Source: Treponemataceae bacterium (lineage in GTDB: Bacteria; Spirochaetota; Spirochaetia; Treponematales; Rectinemataceae). From it: a stretch of DNA of 64,000 nt. Positions 26,814-32,956 of this stretch are shown piece by piece (positions within the stretch are counted from its first letter, which is position 1; every line of letters starts with the position of its first letter). The DNA lies in NCBI GenBank assembly GCA_963667725.2, contig CAXXHO010000003.1:1984001-2048000 (forward strand), read 5' to 3'. The translations under genes and the position numbers were made by a program. The notes under the pieces are model-generated. The model was not told the origin of the DNA. It did not search any database and saw only the letters and a program-made list of their open reading frames with translations.

Positions 26814-28213
26814 GCGGTCCAGCCGCCCCGGGCGCCCTCGCCGATTTCATCGTCGAGGGCGCCGTCATCCTCTGCCTGGATCCCGAATGGCGAATCTTCG
26901 AACCAGGCTACCTCGCGGTGCGCGACGGCCGGATCAGCGCCGTCGGCCCCGCCGAAGAGGGCGCGGCCATCCAGGCCAAGCGGCGCGTCGACGCCGCGGG
27001 CAAGCTTCTCATGCCAGGCTTCGTCAACACCCACACCCACGTTCCCATGTCGGCCTTCCGCGGCGCCTGCGAAGACGTCAAGGACAGGTTGATCCGCTTC
27101 CTCTTCCCCCTCGAGCGCGACCTCGTGCGGCCGGAGCTCGTCTACTGGTCGACGCTCTACTGCCTCACCGAGATGGCGCGATCGGGCACCACCACCTTCG
27201 CGGACATGTACTATTTCGAGGATGAAGTCGCCAAGGCGACGAAAAAAGCCGGCATGCGCGCCCTCCTCGGGGAGACCGTGCTCGGCCAGGCCGCGCCCGA
27301 CGCAGCCCAGGCCTACGGCGGCATCGACTACGCGAAGGACTTCATCGCCGAATGGAAGAAAGACGGGCTCATCGATCCCTGCTTCGCCCCGCACGCTCCC
27401 TACACCGTGGATCGCGCCCACCTGGAACTGCTGCGCGACGAGGCCGAGCGCCTCGACACCGACATCATGATCCACGTGGCCGAGATGGATTTCGAGAACA
27501 GGCAGTTTTCGGAGAGCCACGGTTCGGTGCTGCGCTATCTCGATTCGATAGAAGGCCTTCTCTCCCCGCGCTTCCTCGCGGCCCACATGCTCTACGTGGA
27601 CGATGAGGACATTGCTCTCGCGGCGAAGCGCGGCATGCGCGTCGCCCACTGCCCGGCCTCGAACGCCAAATCGGGCCGCCTCATCTGCCCGGCCTGGCGC
27701 CTCGCGAAGGCCGGCGTCCCCCTGGGTCTCGCCACTGACGGCCCCCTGTCCGGAAACGGCATGGACATGGAAGGCGTGCTGGGTCTCTTCCCTAAAATGC
27801 AGAAGGTGAGGGAAGGCAGGCGCGAGATAGTGAGCGCCAGGGAAGCCCTGCGCGCCGCCACGTTGGGCGGCGCCGAAGCTCTCCATTTATCCGACAGGAT
27901 CGGATCGCTCGAAGAGGGTAAGCGCGCCGACTTCGTCATTGTCGACCTGAACGACTTCAACATGCAGCCGGTCTACGATTGGTATTCGACGGTCGTCTAC
28001 GCGATGAGACCGCACAACGTCGAGTCCGTCTTCGTGGAGGGCAGACAGATCGTGGAGGGGCGCAGGATGACGGGCTTCGACCAGGATGAGGCGATGGCGG
28101 AAATGATGAAGATAAAGGGCAACTGTTCGGCCTTCATCGCCGATATCGCCGCGAGGCTTGCCGACTCCGTCAAAGATCCATCGTCGATCGGTACGGCCTG
28201 GCGTTCGCCTTGA
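26810..28213 (+). CDS. Metal-dependent amidohydrolase, MtaD/AtzA (deaminase) family
   Basis: MPGFVNTHTH, SGTTTFADMY, APHAPYT, IHVAE, HCPASNAK, LATDG. ATGA overlap with the permease. Confidence 0.9.
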   Translation: MSGPAAPGALADFIVEGAVILCLDPEWRIFEPGYLAVRDGRISAVGPAEEGAAIQAKRRVDAAGKLLMPGFVNTHTHVPMSAFRGACEDVKDRLIRFLFPLERDLVRPELVYWSTLYCLTEMARSGTTTFADMYYFEDEVAKATKKAGMRALLGETVLGQAAPDAAQAYGGIDYAKDFIAEWKKDGLIDPCFAPHAPYTVDRAHLELLRDEAERLDTDIMIHVAEMDFENRQFSESHGSVLRYLDSIEGLLSPRFLAAHMLYVDDEDIALAAKRGMRVAHCPASNAKSGRLICPAWRLAKAGVPLGLATDGPLSGNGMDMEGVLGLFPKMQKVREGRREIVSAREALRAATLGGAEALHLSDRIGSLEEGKRADFVIVDLNDFNMQPVYDWYSTVVYAMRPHNVESVFVEGRQIVEGRRMTGFDQDEAMAEMMKIKGNCSAFIADIAARLADSVKDPSSIGTAWRSP

Positions 28214-29614
28214 ACTCGGCCTTGGCTGCGGTGAGGATTTCCGGCTCGGTGACGAGCCCGAAGCCCGCGAGCGCCATGCAGGAGCCCGCCCAGCGCATGG
28301 CCTTGAAGGCCCATGTAGAACCGGAGGCCGCGCAGGACTGCCAGGTGTGGGCGCCGATGCCGAGAGGCCAGGTGGCCGCGTTCATCTGCCCCACCGGGAC
28401 GACATAGGACACGTCGCCCGTATCGAGAGAACCGCCTATCCTTTTCCCTTCACCAAAATCGCCCAACGTTCTGTGGATGGGCGATTTCAGTAAATCGAGC
28501 GGGGCGCCGATCGGCGCGAGGGTCGCTTTCCTGTCGTCTTTTCCACGGTCGCCTGGAGGCTTTTCGCGAAGGCGAGTTCCTCGGGCGTAGGCACGGGCAG
28601 GGGCAGGCTACCCATCGCCCTGTACAGAAGATCCTGGATGGCGTAGTTCGGCCTGTAATCGCACTTTCCGGCTTTTATCTCCGACGTGAAACTCGTCTCC
28701 GTCATGAGGGCCGCGCCCTGCGCCGCCTTCATTATGCGCTTCATGACGAGGGGAACGATATCGGCCGTCGGGGCGCGAACATAGAGAAAGGTCGCGGCGT
28801 GCGCCGGCACGATGTTGGGCCTGTCGCCGCCGTCGCTGATCACGTAGTGCAGAAGGATGCCGGGGCTGAGATGCTCGCGCATGAATTCGAGCGAAAAATT
28901 GAAGAGCTGGACGGCGTCGAGGGCCGATCTTCCCGCCTGAGGCGCCATGCCGGCGTGGCTCGCCCTGCCTTTGAAGGAAAAGACGAGGCTCAGGTTGGCG
29001 CTCGAGGTATAGCGGTGCGGCGTGTTCACGTCGGCGCCGTGCCAGGTCATGATGGCGTCGGCGTCGCTGAAGCGGCCGGCCTTCACCATGGGAATGCGCC
29101 CGAGCGATTCCTCGGCCGGGCAGCCGTAATATCTGACTCTTCCGGGGATGCCCCGCGCTTCGAGAATGTGGGCGAGGGTCTCGGCGGCGGCGAGAGAGCC
29201 AGCTCCGAGAAGATTGTGCCCGCAGGCGTGCCCCGGGGCTCCCTCGTTCGCGGGCTTTTTTTCGATGCCGCAGACCTGGGACATGCCAGGCAGCGCGTCA
29301 TATTCGCCCATGAAGGCGATGATGGGTCCCCCCGAACCGCGTTCGGCGACGAAGGAATGCTTCATCTCGGGGTACTCGGTCACCGAGAAGCCTTTGGAGG
29401 CGAGGCGCTTTTCATAGATGGCCGAAGAGCGCTCCTCGTGGAAGGCGACTTCGGGATGTTCCCAGATGTCGCGCGAGATCGCGTCGTATTCGGCGCCGTG
29501 GCGCGCGACGAATTCGGCTATTTCCGCGGCCGCGGACATTGTTGCGGACGGGACCGCGGCCAAGGCCGGCGCCGCGATCGTTTGAGCGTTCTGGAGAGCA
29601 TTGATCTTCTTCAT
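28170..29614 (-). pseudogene. AbgB-like M20 amidohydrolase split by a single-base frameshift (pseudogene or sequencing error)
   Basis: N-part 28487-29614 has IWEHPE, GEYDALPG, GHACGHNLLG, GCPAEE, GRSALDA. C-part in another frame has GGSLDTGDVSYVVP...AHTWQ. Adding one A near 28540 joins them. Confidence 0.85.
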
Positions 29615-29639
29615 CGTACAACCTTTGGGTATCGAGAGT

Positions 29640-30470
29640 TCAGAGACCGGCCTTAGCCTTCACGCGACTGCGTCCATCCTTGGCGAACTGGAAACCCGCG
29701 TTGAGTTCCAGTGCCTTTCCGTAGATTTCATAGGCGCGTTTGTACTGGCCAAGTATTTCCTTCACGGCGCCCAGCCTGTACCACCAGTAGTACATGTTCT
29801 TTTCCATCGTGACGGCTGTTGAAAAGGCTATGTCGGCGTGTTCGTACTTCTTGAGCCTCATGTAGCATTCGCCCACGTAATAATAGGCGCTGGACATTCT
29901 TTCCTCGCGCTCGGGGGCCCGCGCGAAATAATCCGCGAAATATTGAAGCGCTTCCTCGTTGCGGTCGAGGAAGTAGAGCGATTCGGCCAAAGTCTCCATA
30001 ATCCTGAAATCCTGGACGGTCTGGAGCGCCTTCTGGCCTATGGTCACGACTTCCTTGTGGCGATCCAAGCGAAAAAGGTTCCAGCACTGGAGGCTGATAA
30101 AGTCAGGGTTGGCGGAGTCTGAGGGAAGGAGTTTCTCGATCATAGCGAGCGAGGAGGAGAAAACCTTGTCCGCTTCGGCTTCCCTGCCGGCCATCTGGAG
30201 CTGGCGTCCTCGCTGATAAAGTTGGGTCGCCGTCTGGTAGGAGGAGCCAGAGGGCGCCGGCTTCGGCGCGGCTGCTGGGTTTGGCGCCGCCGCTGGAGCC
30301 ACCGGCTTCGGCGCTGCCGTGATTGTGGTCGTAGTCGCGCTCGTGACGTTCGCTTCGGGCACTTCCTGCCTGCCTTGGCCATAGGAGGCGGTGACGGCCG
30401 CGAAGGCCAGGACCAGGCAGACCAGCGTGGATTTAGGCGGCAATGCGCGCCGCCGCCTTCGAGTAACCAT
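29640..30470 (-). CDS. Exported tetratricopeptide repeat protein
   Basis: Arg-rich N-terminus plus hydrophobic signal, Ala/Pro linker, TPR motifs (AYYYVGECY, WWYRLGAVKE..G.Y..A...Y.KALELN). Confidence 0.88.
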   Translation of the reverse strand: MVTRRRRRALPPKSTLVCLVLAFAAVTASYGQGRQEVPEANVTSATTTTITAAPKPVAPAAAPNPAAAPKPAPSGSSYQTATQLYQRGRQLQMAGREAEADKVFSSSLAMIEKLLPSDSANPDFISLQCWNLFRLDRHKEVVTIGQKALQTVQDFRIMETLAESLYFLDRNEEALQYFADYFARAPEREERMSSAYYYVGECYMRLKKYEHADIAFSTAVTMEKNMYYWWYRLGAVKEILGQYKRAYEIYGKALELNAGFQFAKDGRSRVKAKAGL

Positions 30471-30529
30471 TATTGCAAAACCTCATTGATTGCCGCGGCA
30501 GCTCGCCGCCGCGCTCTTTTCCCAATCAT
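30470..30529 (-). CDS. Putative 19-aa mini-ORF MIGKRARRRAAAAINEVLQ
   Basis: ATG overlaps the upstream mini-ORF TGA (ATGA); TAA overlaps the TPR ATG (TAATG); GAGGT SD-like motif 6 nt upstream. Confidence 0.5.
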   Translation of the reverse strand: MIGKRARRRAAAAINEVLQ

Positions 30530-30579
30530 TGTAGTACCTCGTTAATAGCCGCAGCTCGCCGCCGCCTTCGAGTTGCCAT
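30526..30579 (-). CDS. Putative 17-aa mini-ORF MATRRRRRAAAINEVLQ
   Basis: ATG overlaps the nfnB TAA (TAATG); TGA overlaps the next ATG. Confidence 0.5.
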   Translation of the reverse strand: MATRRRRRAAAINEVLQ

Positions 30580-32060
30580 TATTGTAAAACTTCATTTATT
30601 GCGGCGGCGGCGCGTCTCCCCTCGCCCATGGCGAGAATGACGGTGGCCGCCCCAAGCACGATGTCGCCGCCCGCGTAGACGCGGTCGATGCTCGTCTTCT
30701 GTTTTTCGTCGACGAGGATATGGCCCCGCCTATCCACCTTGAGTTCGGGCGTCGTCCTGGATATGAGGGGGTTGGATTCGTTGCCCACGGCCACGATCAC
30801 GGTGTCGAAGGGAACGACCGTCTCGCTTCCGCGTATGGCCACGGGGCTGCGCCTTCCCGATGCATCAGCCTCGCCTAGTTCGAAGGCCGTCACTTCCAGG
30901 CCGATGACCCTTCCGTTCTGGTCGCCGAGGACCCTCGCCGGGCTGCGCAGGAAATCGAAGATGATGCCCTCTTCCATGGCGTGGATCACTTCCTCGCCTC
31001 TGGCCGGCATTTCTTCCCTCGTCCGGCGGTAGAGGATATGGACTTCCTCGGCGCCCAGCCTCATGGCCATGCGCGCCGAGTCCATGGCGACGTTGCCGCC
31101 GCCGAGGACGGCCACCCTCCTTGAAGGATAGAGAGGCGTCGCGGCTTCTCCTTTCCTGTAGGCTTTCATGAGGTTGGTCCGGGTGAGGTATTCGTTGGCG
31201 CTGAAGACGCCGACGAGGTTTTCGCCGGGTATGTCCATGAATTTGGGCAGGCCCGCGCCGGTGCCGATGAAGGCGGCGCTGAAGCCGTCCTCCGTGAGGA
31301 GGGCCGAGAGTTTGCGGGTCCGGCCGACGAGGTAGCTCATCTCGAAGCTCACGCCCATGGATTCGAGGACGCCCGCCTCCGAGGCGACGAGAGCCTTGGG
31401 CAGCCTGAATTCCGGAATTCCGTACACCATGACGCCGCCGGCCTTGTGGAAGGCTTCGAAGACGACGACCTCGTGTCCCTGTCTTCTCACGTCCACGGCG
31501 CAGGTGAGTCCGGCGGGGCCGGCGCCCACGATGGCCACTTTCTTGCCGGTCGAGGCAGCGGCGGGAGGCGGCGCGAGGAGGCCTGAGTTCCGCTCGTAAT
31601 CGGCCACGAATCGTTCGATCCTGCCGATCTGGACGCCTTTTTCGACGCTCTTGAGCGCCTTGCCGAGAGTACAGGGCAGCTGGCACTGCTTTTCCTGGGG
31701 ACAGACTCTTCCGCAGATCGAGGGCAGGAGGTTCGTGCGCTTGATCACCGAAGCCGCTCCAGCGAAGTCCCCTTCCCTGACCTTCCCTATGAATCCGGGA
31801 ATGTCGACGCGGACGGGGCAGCCGGCGACGCAGGGCGCGTTCTTGCACTGGAGGCAGCGTTCCGCCTCCACCATGGCCTGATCAGGCGAATAGCCCGTGG
31901 CCACCTCGTCCATGTTGCTCCGACGCAGGTCCGGGTTCTGGTTGGGCATCTCCTGCACGGGAATCGCCATCCTGTCCCTGGGCGTCAGCGTCATCGATCG
32001 GATCCTGTCGAGTTCGAGTCTCGCGTTATTCTCGTTGTATATGGTGTCCATGTGGCTCAT
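30579..32060 (-). CDS. nfnB: NADH-dependent reduced ferredoxin:NADP+ oxidoreductase large subunit (often annotated as homotetrameric glutamate synthase gltA)
   Basis: EAERCLQCKNAPCVAGCPV, CGRVCPQEKQC, GAGPAG, YGIPEFRLPK, GGGNVAMD, GGDIVLGAATVILAMGEGR. Start MSHMDT overlaps the nfnA stop. Confidence 0.85.
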   Translation of the reverse strand: MSHMDTIYNENNARLELDRIRSMTLTPRDRMAIPVQEMPNQNPDLRRSNMDEVATGYSPDQAMVEAERCLQCKNAPCVAGCPVRVDIPGFIGKVREGDFAGAASVIKRTNLLPSICGRVCPQEKQCQLPCTLGKALKSVEKGVQIGRIERFVADYERNSGLLAPPPAAASTGKKVAIVGAGPAGLTCAVDVRRQGHEVVVFEAFHKAGGVMVYGIPEFRLPKALVASEAGVLESMGVSFEMSYLVGRTRKLSALLTEDGFSAAFIGTGAGLPKFMDIPGENLVGVFSANEYLTRTNLMKAYRKGEAATPLYPSRRVAVLGGGNVAMDSARMAMRLGAEEVHILYRRTREEMPARGEEVIHAMEEGIIFDFLRSPARVLGDQNGRVIGLEVTAFELGEADASGRRSPVAIRGSETVVPFDTVIVAVGNESNPLISRTTPELKVDRRGHILVDEKQKTSIDRVYAGGDIVLGAATVILAMGEGRRAAAAINEVLQ

Positions 32061-32956
32061 TTCGCGGCCTTCCCTGCAGTCCCCGCCGCGCCGGTGTTTT
32101 TCGCTTCGAGGTTTTCTATCGACATTTCCAGGTGGCATCGGTCGTGATCCGCCTGCTCGAGGCTTTTGTAGGCGCCCAGCCTCGTCATCATCTGCGCCCA
32201 GTCCACCTCGTGCGCGTCGAATTCGGGGCCGTCGACGCAGACGAATTTCGTCTGCCCGCCCACCGATACCCTGCATCCGCCGCACATGCCCGTGCCGTCG
32301 ATCATTATTGTGTTGAGGGAAGCGAGGGTTTTAATGCCGAAGGGTTTGGTCGTCGCGGCGCAGAATTTCATCATGACGGGCGGTCCCACCGTCACGACGA
32401 TGTCGGGCGGAGGTGTCCGGCCGCAGAGTTCGCCGAGCGGTTCGGTGACGAGGGCTTTTCTTCCCGCCGTCCCGTCGTCCGTGACGACGATATTCTCGTC
32501 GGCCAGCGCGTTCATCTCGTCCTGCATGATGAGAAGCTCGGCGGTGCGGGCTCCCGAAATAACCGTGACCCTGTTGCCAGCGGCTTTCAGCGCCTTGACG
32601 ATGGGGTGCAGGGGGGCGAGGCCTATGCCGCCTCCCACGCAGACCGCCCAGCCAAATTTTTCTATATGAGTGGGATTGCCCAGAGGGCCGAGAAGGACGA
32701 CGCCGTCGCCCGGTTCCTTGAGCGCGAGCTTGTGCGTGCTCGCGCCGACGGTCTGAAAAATTATCGTCACGGATCCGGCTTCCGGATTCGCGTCGGCTAT
32801 CGTGAGGGGTATCCGTTCGGCGTAGTTCTCGTCGCACTGGACGATGACGAACTGGCCGGCTTTGCGCTCCCTGGCCACGAGGGGCGCCTCTATTTCCATC
32901 CTGTATACTTCATCGGAAAGCTTTCGTTTGGAGAGTATTTTGTGTTCACCGTGCAT
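32057..32956 (-). CDS. nfnA: NfnA-type FAD/2Fe-2S small subunit (sulfide/dihydroorotate dehydrogenase-like)
   Basis: AGQFVIV, ERIPLTIAD, GPLGNP, GGGIG, SLNTIMIDGTGMCGGCRV, VCVDGPEF motifs. Confidence 0.87.
   Translation of the reverse strand: MHGEHKILSKRKLSDEVYRMEIEAPLVARERKAGQFVIVQCDENYAERIPLTIADANPEAGSVTIIFQTVGASTHKLALKEPGDGVVLLGPLGNPTHIEKFGWAVCVGGGIGLAPLHPIVKALKAAGNRVTVISGARTAELLIMQDEMNALADENIVVTDDGTAGRKALVTEPLGELCGRTPPPDIVVTVGPPVMMKFCAATTKPFGIKTLASLNTIMIDGTGMCGGCRVSVGGQTKFVCVDGPEFDAHEVDWAQMMTRLGAYKSLEQADHDRCHLEMSIENLEAKNTGAAGTAGKAAK

What the first reader, a model, noticed from the sequence alone, without database searches (positions are those of the whole stretch)
30445..30630. Translationally chained micro-ORFs that re-encode the NfnB C-terminal peptide with synonymous codons
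Seen (minus strand): nfnB ends ...GRRAAAAINEVLQ* with codons ATA AAT GAA GTT TTA CAA TAA. Its TAA overlaps the ATG of MATRRRRRAAAINEVLQ* (30579-30526; ATT AAC GAG GTA CTA CAA TGA). That TGA overlaps the ATG of MIGKRARRRAAAAINEVLQ* (30529-30470; ATC AAT GAG GTT TTG CAA TAA). That TAA overlaps the ATG of the TPR gene, which begins MVTRRRRRA. Across AAAINEVLQ* the three copies differ at many bases, yet every difference is synonymous, and every stop/start overlap is kept (TAATG, ATGA, TAATG). The Arg runs use CGA/AGG/CGG codons, and the Glu-Val codons supply GAGGT SD motifs. Both ORFs are too short for the ORF track. Inference: a duplicated gene junction decaying neutrally should not preserve the peptide so cleanly, so these ORFs are probably translated and under selection. 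Possible roles are a ribosome re-initiation relay, possibly Arg-sensitive, linking nfnAB to the TPR gene, or free peptides mimicking the NfnB C-terminal helix (TPR domains are known to bind C-terminal peptides, although this one looks exported). I know of no description of this arrangement.
Basis: partly seen in the sequence, partly recalled or inferred. Interest (0 to 1): 0.85.

Follow-up and report, generated by a model that had tools for sequence, protein, structure and literature searches.

The report
Duplicated gene junction forming relay mini-ORFs
In a spirochaete, the overlap between the end of one gene and the start of the next has been copied in tandem, leaving two tiny reading frames that probably just pass ribosomes along; relatives gain and lose these copies, and the peptides themselves do not look important.

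Summary
Coordinates and overlaps are exact, it is the only such junction in the genome, and two independent assemblies carry all three copies. Each mini-ORF is a chimera of a TPR-gene start and an nfnB end. It arose by tandem duplication of the coupled stop/start junction; Arg-Arg-Ala codons shared by both genes give in-frame microhomology. Copy number is 0-2: 7 of 15 junctions in the close clade carry copies, across three genera, and a strain about 98.5% identical lacks both. The synonymous-only pattern does not show a functional peptide. In that strain the second copy's tail is the real nfnB end, so tails cycle through nfnB. Another lineage's copies drift almost neutrally in amino acids (pN/pS about 0.8, against 0.07 for nfnB) while keeping frame, overlaps, the Shine-Dalgarno (SD) motif and a hairpin. 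Best reading: a dispensable ribosome relay kept intact so the TPR gene stays coupled. It works like mycobacterial MIRU repeats but is not one. Translation is not shown. This scan has noted the same kind of relay on other DNA (23 notes).

The parts
32057..32956 (-). nfnA-like small subunit gene (299 aa)
   Evidence: Pfam DHODB_Fe-S_bind and NAD_binding_1; NCBIfam PRK06222 over its cut-off
30579..32048 (-). nfnB-like large subunit gene (489 aa); its last codons are the first copy of the repeat
   Evidence: Best solved relatives are 4ylf_B/4yry (E 2e-150) and NfnI subunit alpha 5jca_L (E 6e-139); Fer4_20 + Pyr_redox_2
30603..30612 (-). Ala-codon arm in nfnB (CGCCGCCGCC), complementary to the Arg-codon arm of the next ORF
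   Evidence: 10-bp perfect stem
30526..30579 (-). mini-ORF 1, 17 aa: TPR-type start fused to an nfnB-type end; TAATG overlap upstream, ATGA downstream
   Evidence: orthologue in G001/L002
30557..30566 (-). Arg-codon arm of mini-ORF 1 (GGCGGCGGCG); with 30612-30603 it brackets the mini-ORF 1 start in a loop of about 35 nt
30536..30540 (-). GAGGT Shine-Dalgarno-like motif for mini-ORF 2, 6 nt before its ATG
   Evidence: sequence; two 16S-like 3' ends in the genome read GATCACCTCCTTT
30470..30529 (-). mini-ORF 2, 19 aa; its head type is shared by 7 junctions in three genera; ATGA overlap upstream, TAATG downstream
30494..30513 (-). local hairpin between the Arg and Ala codons of mini-ORF 2 (8 bp, 4-nt loop)
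   Evidence: 6-8 bp in 7 of 7 carriers
30480..30484 (-). GAGGT Shine-Dalgarno-like motif for the TPR gene, 9 nt before its ATG
   Evidence: invariant in 7 of 7 last mini-ORFs
30495..30603 (.). 109-bp block (two units, 53 + 56 nt) absent from a strain about 98.5% identical; the joint lies at a 5-nt microhomology and keeps nfnB in frame with the same end peptide
   Evidence: contig of run X6; frame check
30435..30458 (-). hairpin in the first codons of the TPR gene
29640..30470 (-). TPR-repeat protein gene (276 aa) with an Arg-rich N-terminus followed by a hydrophobic stretch (signal-peptide-like; read by eye)
   Evidence: Pfam TPR_1, TPR_2, TPR_8, TPR_12; a relative in 65 of 69 family genomes

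Best explanation
The array is an expanding and contracting tandem duplication of the translationally coupled nfnB-stop/TPR-start junction. Origin (inferred from sequence): nfnB ends R-R-A and the TPR gene begins R-R-A with similar codons, giving 7-nt direct microhomologies in the same reading frame. Slippage or unequal exchange between them copies a 50-56 nt unit that is automatically an in-frame mini-ORF with SD, stop and start in place. Function (inferred): ribosomes finishing nfnB re-initiate on mini-ORF 1, then mini-ORF 2, then the TPR gene. Selection removes only copies that break this relay, so frame, overlaps, SD and the GC-rich arm persist while amino acids can drift. The perfect peptide match in this genome arises because the tails take turns as the true nfnB end and exchange short tracts with it. 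The copies are dispensable.
For: Shown: in-frame 7-nt microhomologies GAAGGCG (unit 50) and GGCGCGC (unit 56) in copy-free sisters L003 and L064, and in-frame matches in 5 of 6 copy-free junctions tested. Shown: copy number 2 (L001, L002), 1 (L004, L006, L065, L068, L069) and 0 in 8 others of a 15-junction clade, with copy-free L003, L064 and L005 nested among or beside carriers. Shown: a contig with 16 differences over 1080 aligned nt skips exactly both units, so its nfnB ends with this genome's mini-ORF 2 tail. Shown: amino-acid drift in the lineage whose tails carry an extra codon. L004/L069 has 3 synonymous changes in 15.8 sites and 6 non-synonymous in 38.2; L006/L068 has 1 in 15.2 and 2 in 41.8; nfnB in L004/L069 has pS 0.21 and pN 0.014. 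Shown: all 9 mini-ORFs keep start, stop and both overlaps although nfnB pS between carriers reaches 0.46; the length differences are whole codons. Shown: the 12-nt block GCGCGGCGGCGA is invariant in 7 of 7 including third positions, whereas 36 of 77 four-fold sites in nfnB are invariant. Known: coupling at -1/-4 overlaps with an SD inside the upstream gene (PMC6728339, passages); short ORFs that only deliver a ribosome (PMC12548453 section 11).
Against: No translation or expression data; no run on record as RNA was listed. The last GAGGT is the TPR gene's own SD and would be kept without any relay. Starts and stops are partly shared with nfnB and TPR codons, and in-frame indels are expected in GCC/GCG triplet runs, so frame conservation is moderate evidence. 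Mini-ORF 1 lacks GAGGT here. Within the lineage of this genome the tails still show a synonymous excess: mini-ORF 1 L001/L002 has 4 synonymous to 1 non-synonymous change, and the L001/L065 tail 3 to 0. One pair set that mixes tail types gave pN/pS 0.13-0.35 (p 8e-5 to 0.004); the like-with-like set gave 0.46 (p 0.085-0.12). So weak selection on the peptide is not excluded. Predicted opening energies of the three starts (7.8, 2.6, 8.8 kcal/mol) lie below the genome median of 11.6 for coupled starts (200 of 469 sampled), so de novo initiation at the TPR gene may not need a relay. The 109-bp joint rests on one contig, not on raw reads.
Confidence: 0.66

Rival explanations
1. Neutral scar with no relay: same origin (slippage, or out-of-register allele replacement from a relative), but the mini-ORFs are not needed for TPR translation, which starts de novo at its own SD. 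Conservation reflects the SD, shared start/stop bases and repair of the quasi-palindrome at DNA level.
For: Frequent clean loss. Starts are not predicted to be unusually occluded. Invariance of the Arg block is only modestly unlikely (0.47 per site, about 0.05 for four sites). Mosaic differences between strains in nfnB suggest recombination.
Against: No frame-breaking indel, premature stop or lost overlap in 9 of 9 mini-ORFs at nfnB pS up to 0.46. The hairpin is kept while loop bases change. An independent degenerate array in another genus (L052) is also chained by GTGA overlaps for its two ORFs.
Confidence: 0.17
2. Selected rheostat or switch: each unit has an Arg arm that can pair with the upstream Ala arm or with its own Ala arm, so copy number or ribosome dwell on the Arg run tunes TPR output relative to NfnAB, possibly in response to a signal.
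For: A perfect 9-14 bp stem between nfnB Ala codons and the next ORF's Arg codons in 21 of 22 junctions of two related clades, in 0 of 22 others, and in 4 of 469 coupled junctions of this genome. One clade-level compensatory change (within-clade stems 10.2-10.4 bp, cross-clade 7.6-7.8). The mini-ORF 2 head is retained across three genera.
Against: The stem exists equally in copy-free relatives. A fixed-register pair count gave no covariation support (37% paired, 408 of 500 shuffles as high; the register I chose was off and registers slide by 3 between lineages). Synonymous recoding of the nfnB arm matched the observed stem with p 0.05-0.33 in 6 of 7 loci tested. The whole-region fold is unremarkable (z -1.37). 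Arg codons are not rare. Template switching could also perfect an inverted repeat (own knowledge).
Confidence: 0.11
3. Functional micro-peptides that mimic the NfnB C-terminal helix and bind NfnAB or the TPR protein.
For: AAAINEVLQ is exact in both copies here, and nearly so in L002, L004 and L065.
Against: I to L/M, N to S, A to D/T and Q to R changes in orthologues; pN/pS about 0.8 in one lineage; decay to TNKGLQ/TNKALQ in L052; absence in a near-identical strain. The TPR protein looks exported while the peptides have no hydrophobic segment.
Confidence: 0.06

Closest known systems
Mycobacterial interspersed repetitive units (MIRUs; Supply et al. 1997, seen only as cited in PMC12548453 section 11; senX3-regX3 copy variation in PMC4213456 passages)
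   Same: Short units of similar size (53-77 bp at senX3-regX3) between operon genes. They hold an ORF coupled to the downstream gene by a stop/start overlap and vary in tandem copy number between strains.
   Different: MIRUs are described as a repeated family that appears mobile and inserts at start codons. This unit occurs at one locus only and is built from the two flanking genes, so its tail can become the true end of nfnB.
Translational coupling by termination-reinitiation at -4/-1 overlaps (Huber et al. 2019, PMC6728339; start of abstract; passages)
   Same: ATGA and -1 overlaps with an SD inside the upstream ORF. The paper also describes coupling through pairing of the upstream ORF with the downstream start region.
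   Different: Here the junction is triplicated, and two of the upstream ORFs are 17-19 codon by-products.
Ribosome-delivering short ORFs and synthetic two-cistron designs (PMC12548453 section 11; PMC13255528, search listing only)
   Same: A short ORF whose role is to bring a ribosome to the next start, with the peptide irrelevant.
   Different: Internal to an operon, natural, and derived by duplication of the junction.
Duplicated gene 3' ends at integration sites, such as icd/icdC at E. coli e14 (recalled; no call)
   Same: A second copy of a gene's 3' end that differs at synonymous sites because it alternates as the real gene end.
   Different: No integrase or element lies between the copies here (ORF list); the units are directly adjacent.

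Membership tests
MIRU | Internal ORF coupled to the downstream gene by stop/start overlap | tested here: met
   TAATG, ATGA, TAATG
MIRU | Variable tandem copy number between strains | tested here: met
   0, 1 or 2 copies
MIRU | Interspersed at many loci as one sequence family | tested here: not met
   Only one locus in the genome, judged by the encoded peptide and by stop-region identity
MIRU | Unit independent of the flanking genes (inserted element) | tested here: not met
   Unit is a chimera of TPR start and nfnB end
MIRU | Sequence homology to mycobacterial MIRUs | not tested
   No MIRU sequence was fetched
Termination-reinitiation coupled ORFs | -4 or -1 overlap | tested here: met
   all 9 mini-ORFs
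Termination-reinitiation coupled ORFs | SD within the upstream ORF | tested here: met
   GAGGT before mini-ORF 2 and TPR; GAAGT only before mini-ORF 1
Termination-reinitiation coupled ORFs | Downstream translation depends on upstream translation | not testable with these tools
   Needs reporters or ribosome profiling
Coupling by RNA unfolding | Structure that occludes the downstream start | tested here: inconclusive
   A conserved stem brackets the start and the TPR opening energy falls from 8.8 to 2.2 kcal/mol when upstream RNA is held unpaired, but values are not above background
Amino-acid-sensing leader peptide (attenuator) | Control codons specific to the leader and rare or regulatory, in a relevant pathway | tested here: not met
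   The Arg run is part of the TPR N-terminus in copy-free relatives; codons are common and cognate tRNAs present
Amino-acid-sensing leader peptide (attenuator) | Terminator or promoter tied to the leader on the sense strand | tested here: not met
   No sense-strand terminator-like site at the array and no promoter-like site in 29400-31000
Functional small protein | Purifying selection on amino acids among orthologues | tested here: inconclusive
   pN/pS about 0.8 in one lineage; 0.46 overall, p 0.085; synonymous excess near this genome is confounded by exchange with nfnB

The most novel reading that the evidence does not exclude
The array is a positively selected translational rheostat. Alternating Ala-arm/Arg-arm hairpins and coupled mini-ORFs set TPR output per NfnAB ribosome according to copy number or ribosome dwell, and the spare tails act as a reservoir of interchangeable nfnB 3' ends. 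It would be a regulatory cascade built entirely from a gene junction and kept across three genera.
Probability: 0.12. Interest if true: 0.75.

Novelty: new variant of a known kind. Interest (0 to 1): 0.4.

Why it matters
It gives a natural 0/1/2-copy series, including near-identical strains, for testing how much translational coupling survives passage through short spacer ORFs. It shows a concrete way for small ORFs to be born fully equipped (SD, start, stop, frame) from existing gene ends. It is also a caution for small-protein screens: a synonymous-only pattern in a micro-ORF can come from swapping with the parent gene's end rather than from a useful peptide.

Tried and rejected
Assembly artefact: rejected. 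The longest exact repeat between units is 17 nt, too short to confuse a 31-mer assembly (word length as in the run index; inference). Genome-wide repeat family: rejected. Integrative element between the copies: none seen. Raw reads X21: 0 laid, so no test; X8 does not cover the junction; no RNA holder was listed, and X6 is RNA only by guess, so it says nothing on expression. Formal covariation count in one fixed register: no support, and the register was badly chosen; I did not repeat it. Duplex-energy ranks of cognate against non-cognate arms were mixed. A pattern search for the doubled end hit 4 of 401 genomes of the order (G000, G001, G025, G067), all in this family; it misses degenerate copies such as G020. 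Rare-codon Arg sensing: rejected. TatC is present, so a twin-arginine reading of the TPR signal is possible but untested. The BRE repeat paper (PMC3110155, passages) showed nothing on coupled ORFs in the passages seen. Peptide co-folding was not run because the peptides are shorter than the tool asks for. Literature searches listed no paper describing mini-ORF chains made by duplicating a gene junction; the library lacks most subscription journals, and no supplements were opened.

Full report
Observation. The three copies, their codons and the TAATG/ATGA/TAATG overlaps are as described. The flanking genes are an nfnA-like and an nfnB-like gene and a TPR gene. Named relatives are labelled Rectinemataceae, Treponemataceae, Treponema, Spirochaetaceae or Spirochaetia. 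The feature is unique in the genome. It is also present in two other assemblies: contig L062, 98.9% identical over 2473 nt, and a 540-nt contig from another study.

Comparative set. I examined 73 loci: 30 from a 61-genome DNA search, 30 from a 69-genome family search with the TPR protein, and 13 from a metagenome pattern that requires the nfnB end and a GC motif but not a mini-ORF. After dropping duplicates and loci without an adjacent TPR gene, 46 junctions remained. Seven carry this type of mini-ORF: L001 and L002 have two, and L004, L006, L065, L068 and L069 have one. An eighth (L052, another genus) has a separate, decayed two-ORF chain that ends shortly before a TPR start with its own SD. 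A tree of 34 of the 46 junctions, built from flanking nfnB and TPR DNA, places all seven carriers in one clade of 15 (support 0.96). Copy-free L003 and L064 are nested between L002 and L001 (0.997, 0.95), and copy-free L005 groups with carriers L065, L004 and L069.

Anatomy and origin. Each unit runs from inside the nfnB end through the stop/start overlap into the Arg run of the next ORF. In copy-free sisters, the nfnB end and the TPR start share 7-nt direct matches in the same frame, which would give units of 50 or 56 nt; the units here are 53 and 56 nt. One of these matches, GGCGCGC, is part of a palindrome, so the inverted complement between nfnB Ala codons and TPR Arg codons also supplies the direct match. 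A duplication through it yields an in-frame chimera with SD and both overlaps, without any further change. The event itself is inferred.

Why the peptide looks conserved. A contig from run X6, with 16 differences over 1080 aligned bases, skips window 30495-30603 at a 5-nt microhomology. The joint is in frame and leaves nfnB ending with this genome's mini-ORF 2 tail and the same peptide. Whether that strain lost the block or this genome gained it, the tail has served as the true nfnB end. Codons are also shared between copies within a genome in a mosaic way: in L002 the nfnB end and mini-ORF 1 share GAG GTG CTG CAA, and both mini-ORFs share ATC AAC. In the lineage whose tails have an extra codon before the stop, amino acids drift: 4 synonymous changes in 31 sites against 8 non-synonymous in 80 over two pairs, while nfnB in the same pairs has pN/pS 0.07 and 0. 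Against this, copies close to this genome still lean synonymous (4:1 and 3:0), and a pair set mixing tail types is significant. I read that as exchange with nfnB, but the numbers are small.

What is conserved. All 9 mini-ORFs keep start, stop and overlaps; the lengths differ by whole codons; GAG GT in the tails is invariant. The block GCGCGGCGGCGA is invariant in the 7 orthologous heads and forms a 6-8 bp hairpin in each, with changes falling mostly in or next to the loop. A perfect 9-14 bp stem between the nfnB Ala codons and the next ORF's Arg codons is present in 21 of 22 junctions of two related clades and in 0 of 22 others (L066 and L067 left out as near-duplicates). The genome background is 4 of 469. 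There is one clade-level compensatory change, but a formal pair count did not support covariation, synonymous recoding often reaches the same stem, and the starts are not predicted to be more closed than usual. The stem therefore predates the mini-ORFs and its role is open.

Mechanism. Most likely (0.66), ribosomes terminate on nfnB, re-initiate through the two spacer ORFs and reach the TPR gene; copies survive only if they keep that path open, and they are dispensable. Shown: anatomy, chimeric origin, copy-number variation, tail interchange and amino-acid drift in one lineage. Inferred: translation, re-initiation and selection on the relay. Rivals are a neutral scar (0.17), a tuned switch (0.11) and a functional peptide (0.06).

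Comparison and novelty. It works like a MIRU array (PMC12548453 section 11 read whole; PMC4213456 two passages; Supply 1997 not seen) but fails two defining tests: it is not interspersed, and it is not independent of its neighbours. Five literature searches listed no description of junction-derived chains. This scan's own notes report the same kind of relay in at least 22 other genomes (unchecked AI notes, 8 of 23 shown), and none for this sequence. My reading was recorded before I saw them. What this locus adds is retention across three genera, a conserved stem, and direct evidence that spare gene ends swap with the real one. Verdict: a real feature, a new variant of a known kind, interest 0.4.

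Noticed in passing
window 28170-29614 (minus strand): The M20 amidohydrolase gene downstream of the TPR gene is split into 375-aa and 98-aa ORFs; in two same-genus genomes it is one open frame of about 500 codons, and one aligns with a single 1-nt gap. Real frameshift or assembly error not decided.
   Followed up: partly
L052 (G067), just after the nfnB stop: Independent, decayed duplications of the nfnB end giving two GTGA-chained mini-ORFs (ending TNKGLQ* and TNKALQQRVH*) before a TPR start with its own SD.
   Followed up: partly
L044 (G029), TPR start: Short in-frame tandem duplication at the TPR N-terminus (MRRISG-MMRISG), so this junction is duplication-prone in other genera too.
   Followed up: no
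window 30494-30523 (plus strand): The mini-ORF 2 hairpin plus a T-rich tail reads as a terminator-like site on the antisense strand; 2 sites were found against 1.7 expected, so it may be chance. A similar A-rich head plus hairpin occurs at TPR starts of genus g20.
   Followed up: no
G000:C3:1260765-1261406: TatC is present; several TPR starts look twin-arginine-like (RRRFSL, RRRLL), judged from a recalled motif.
   Followed up: no
G000 genome-wide: 50 of 503 coupled long-ORF ends lead through short bridging ORFs to another long ORF; only the present one shows a junction duplication, and no chance control was run.
   Followed up: partly
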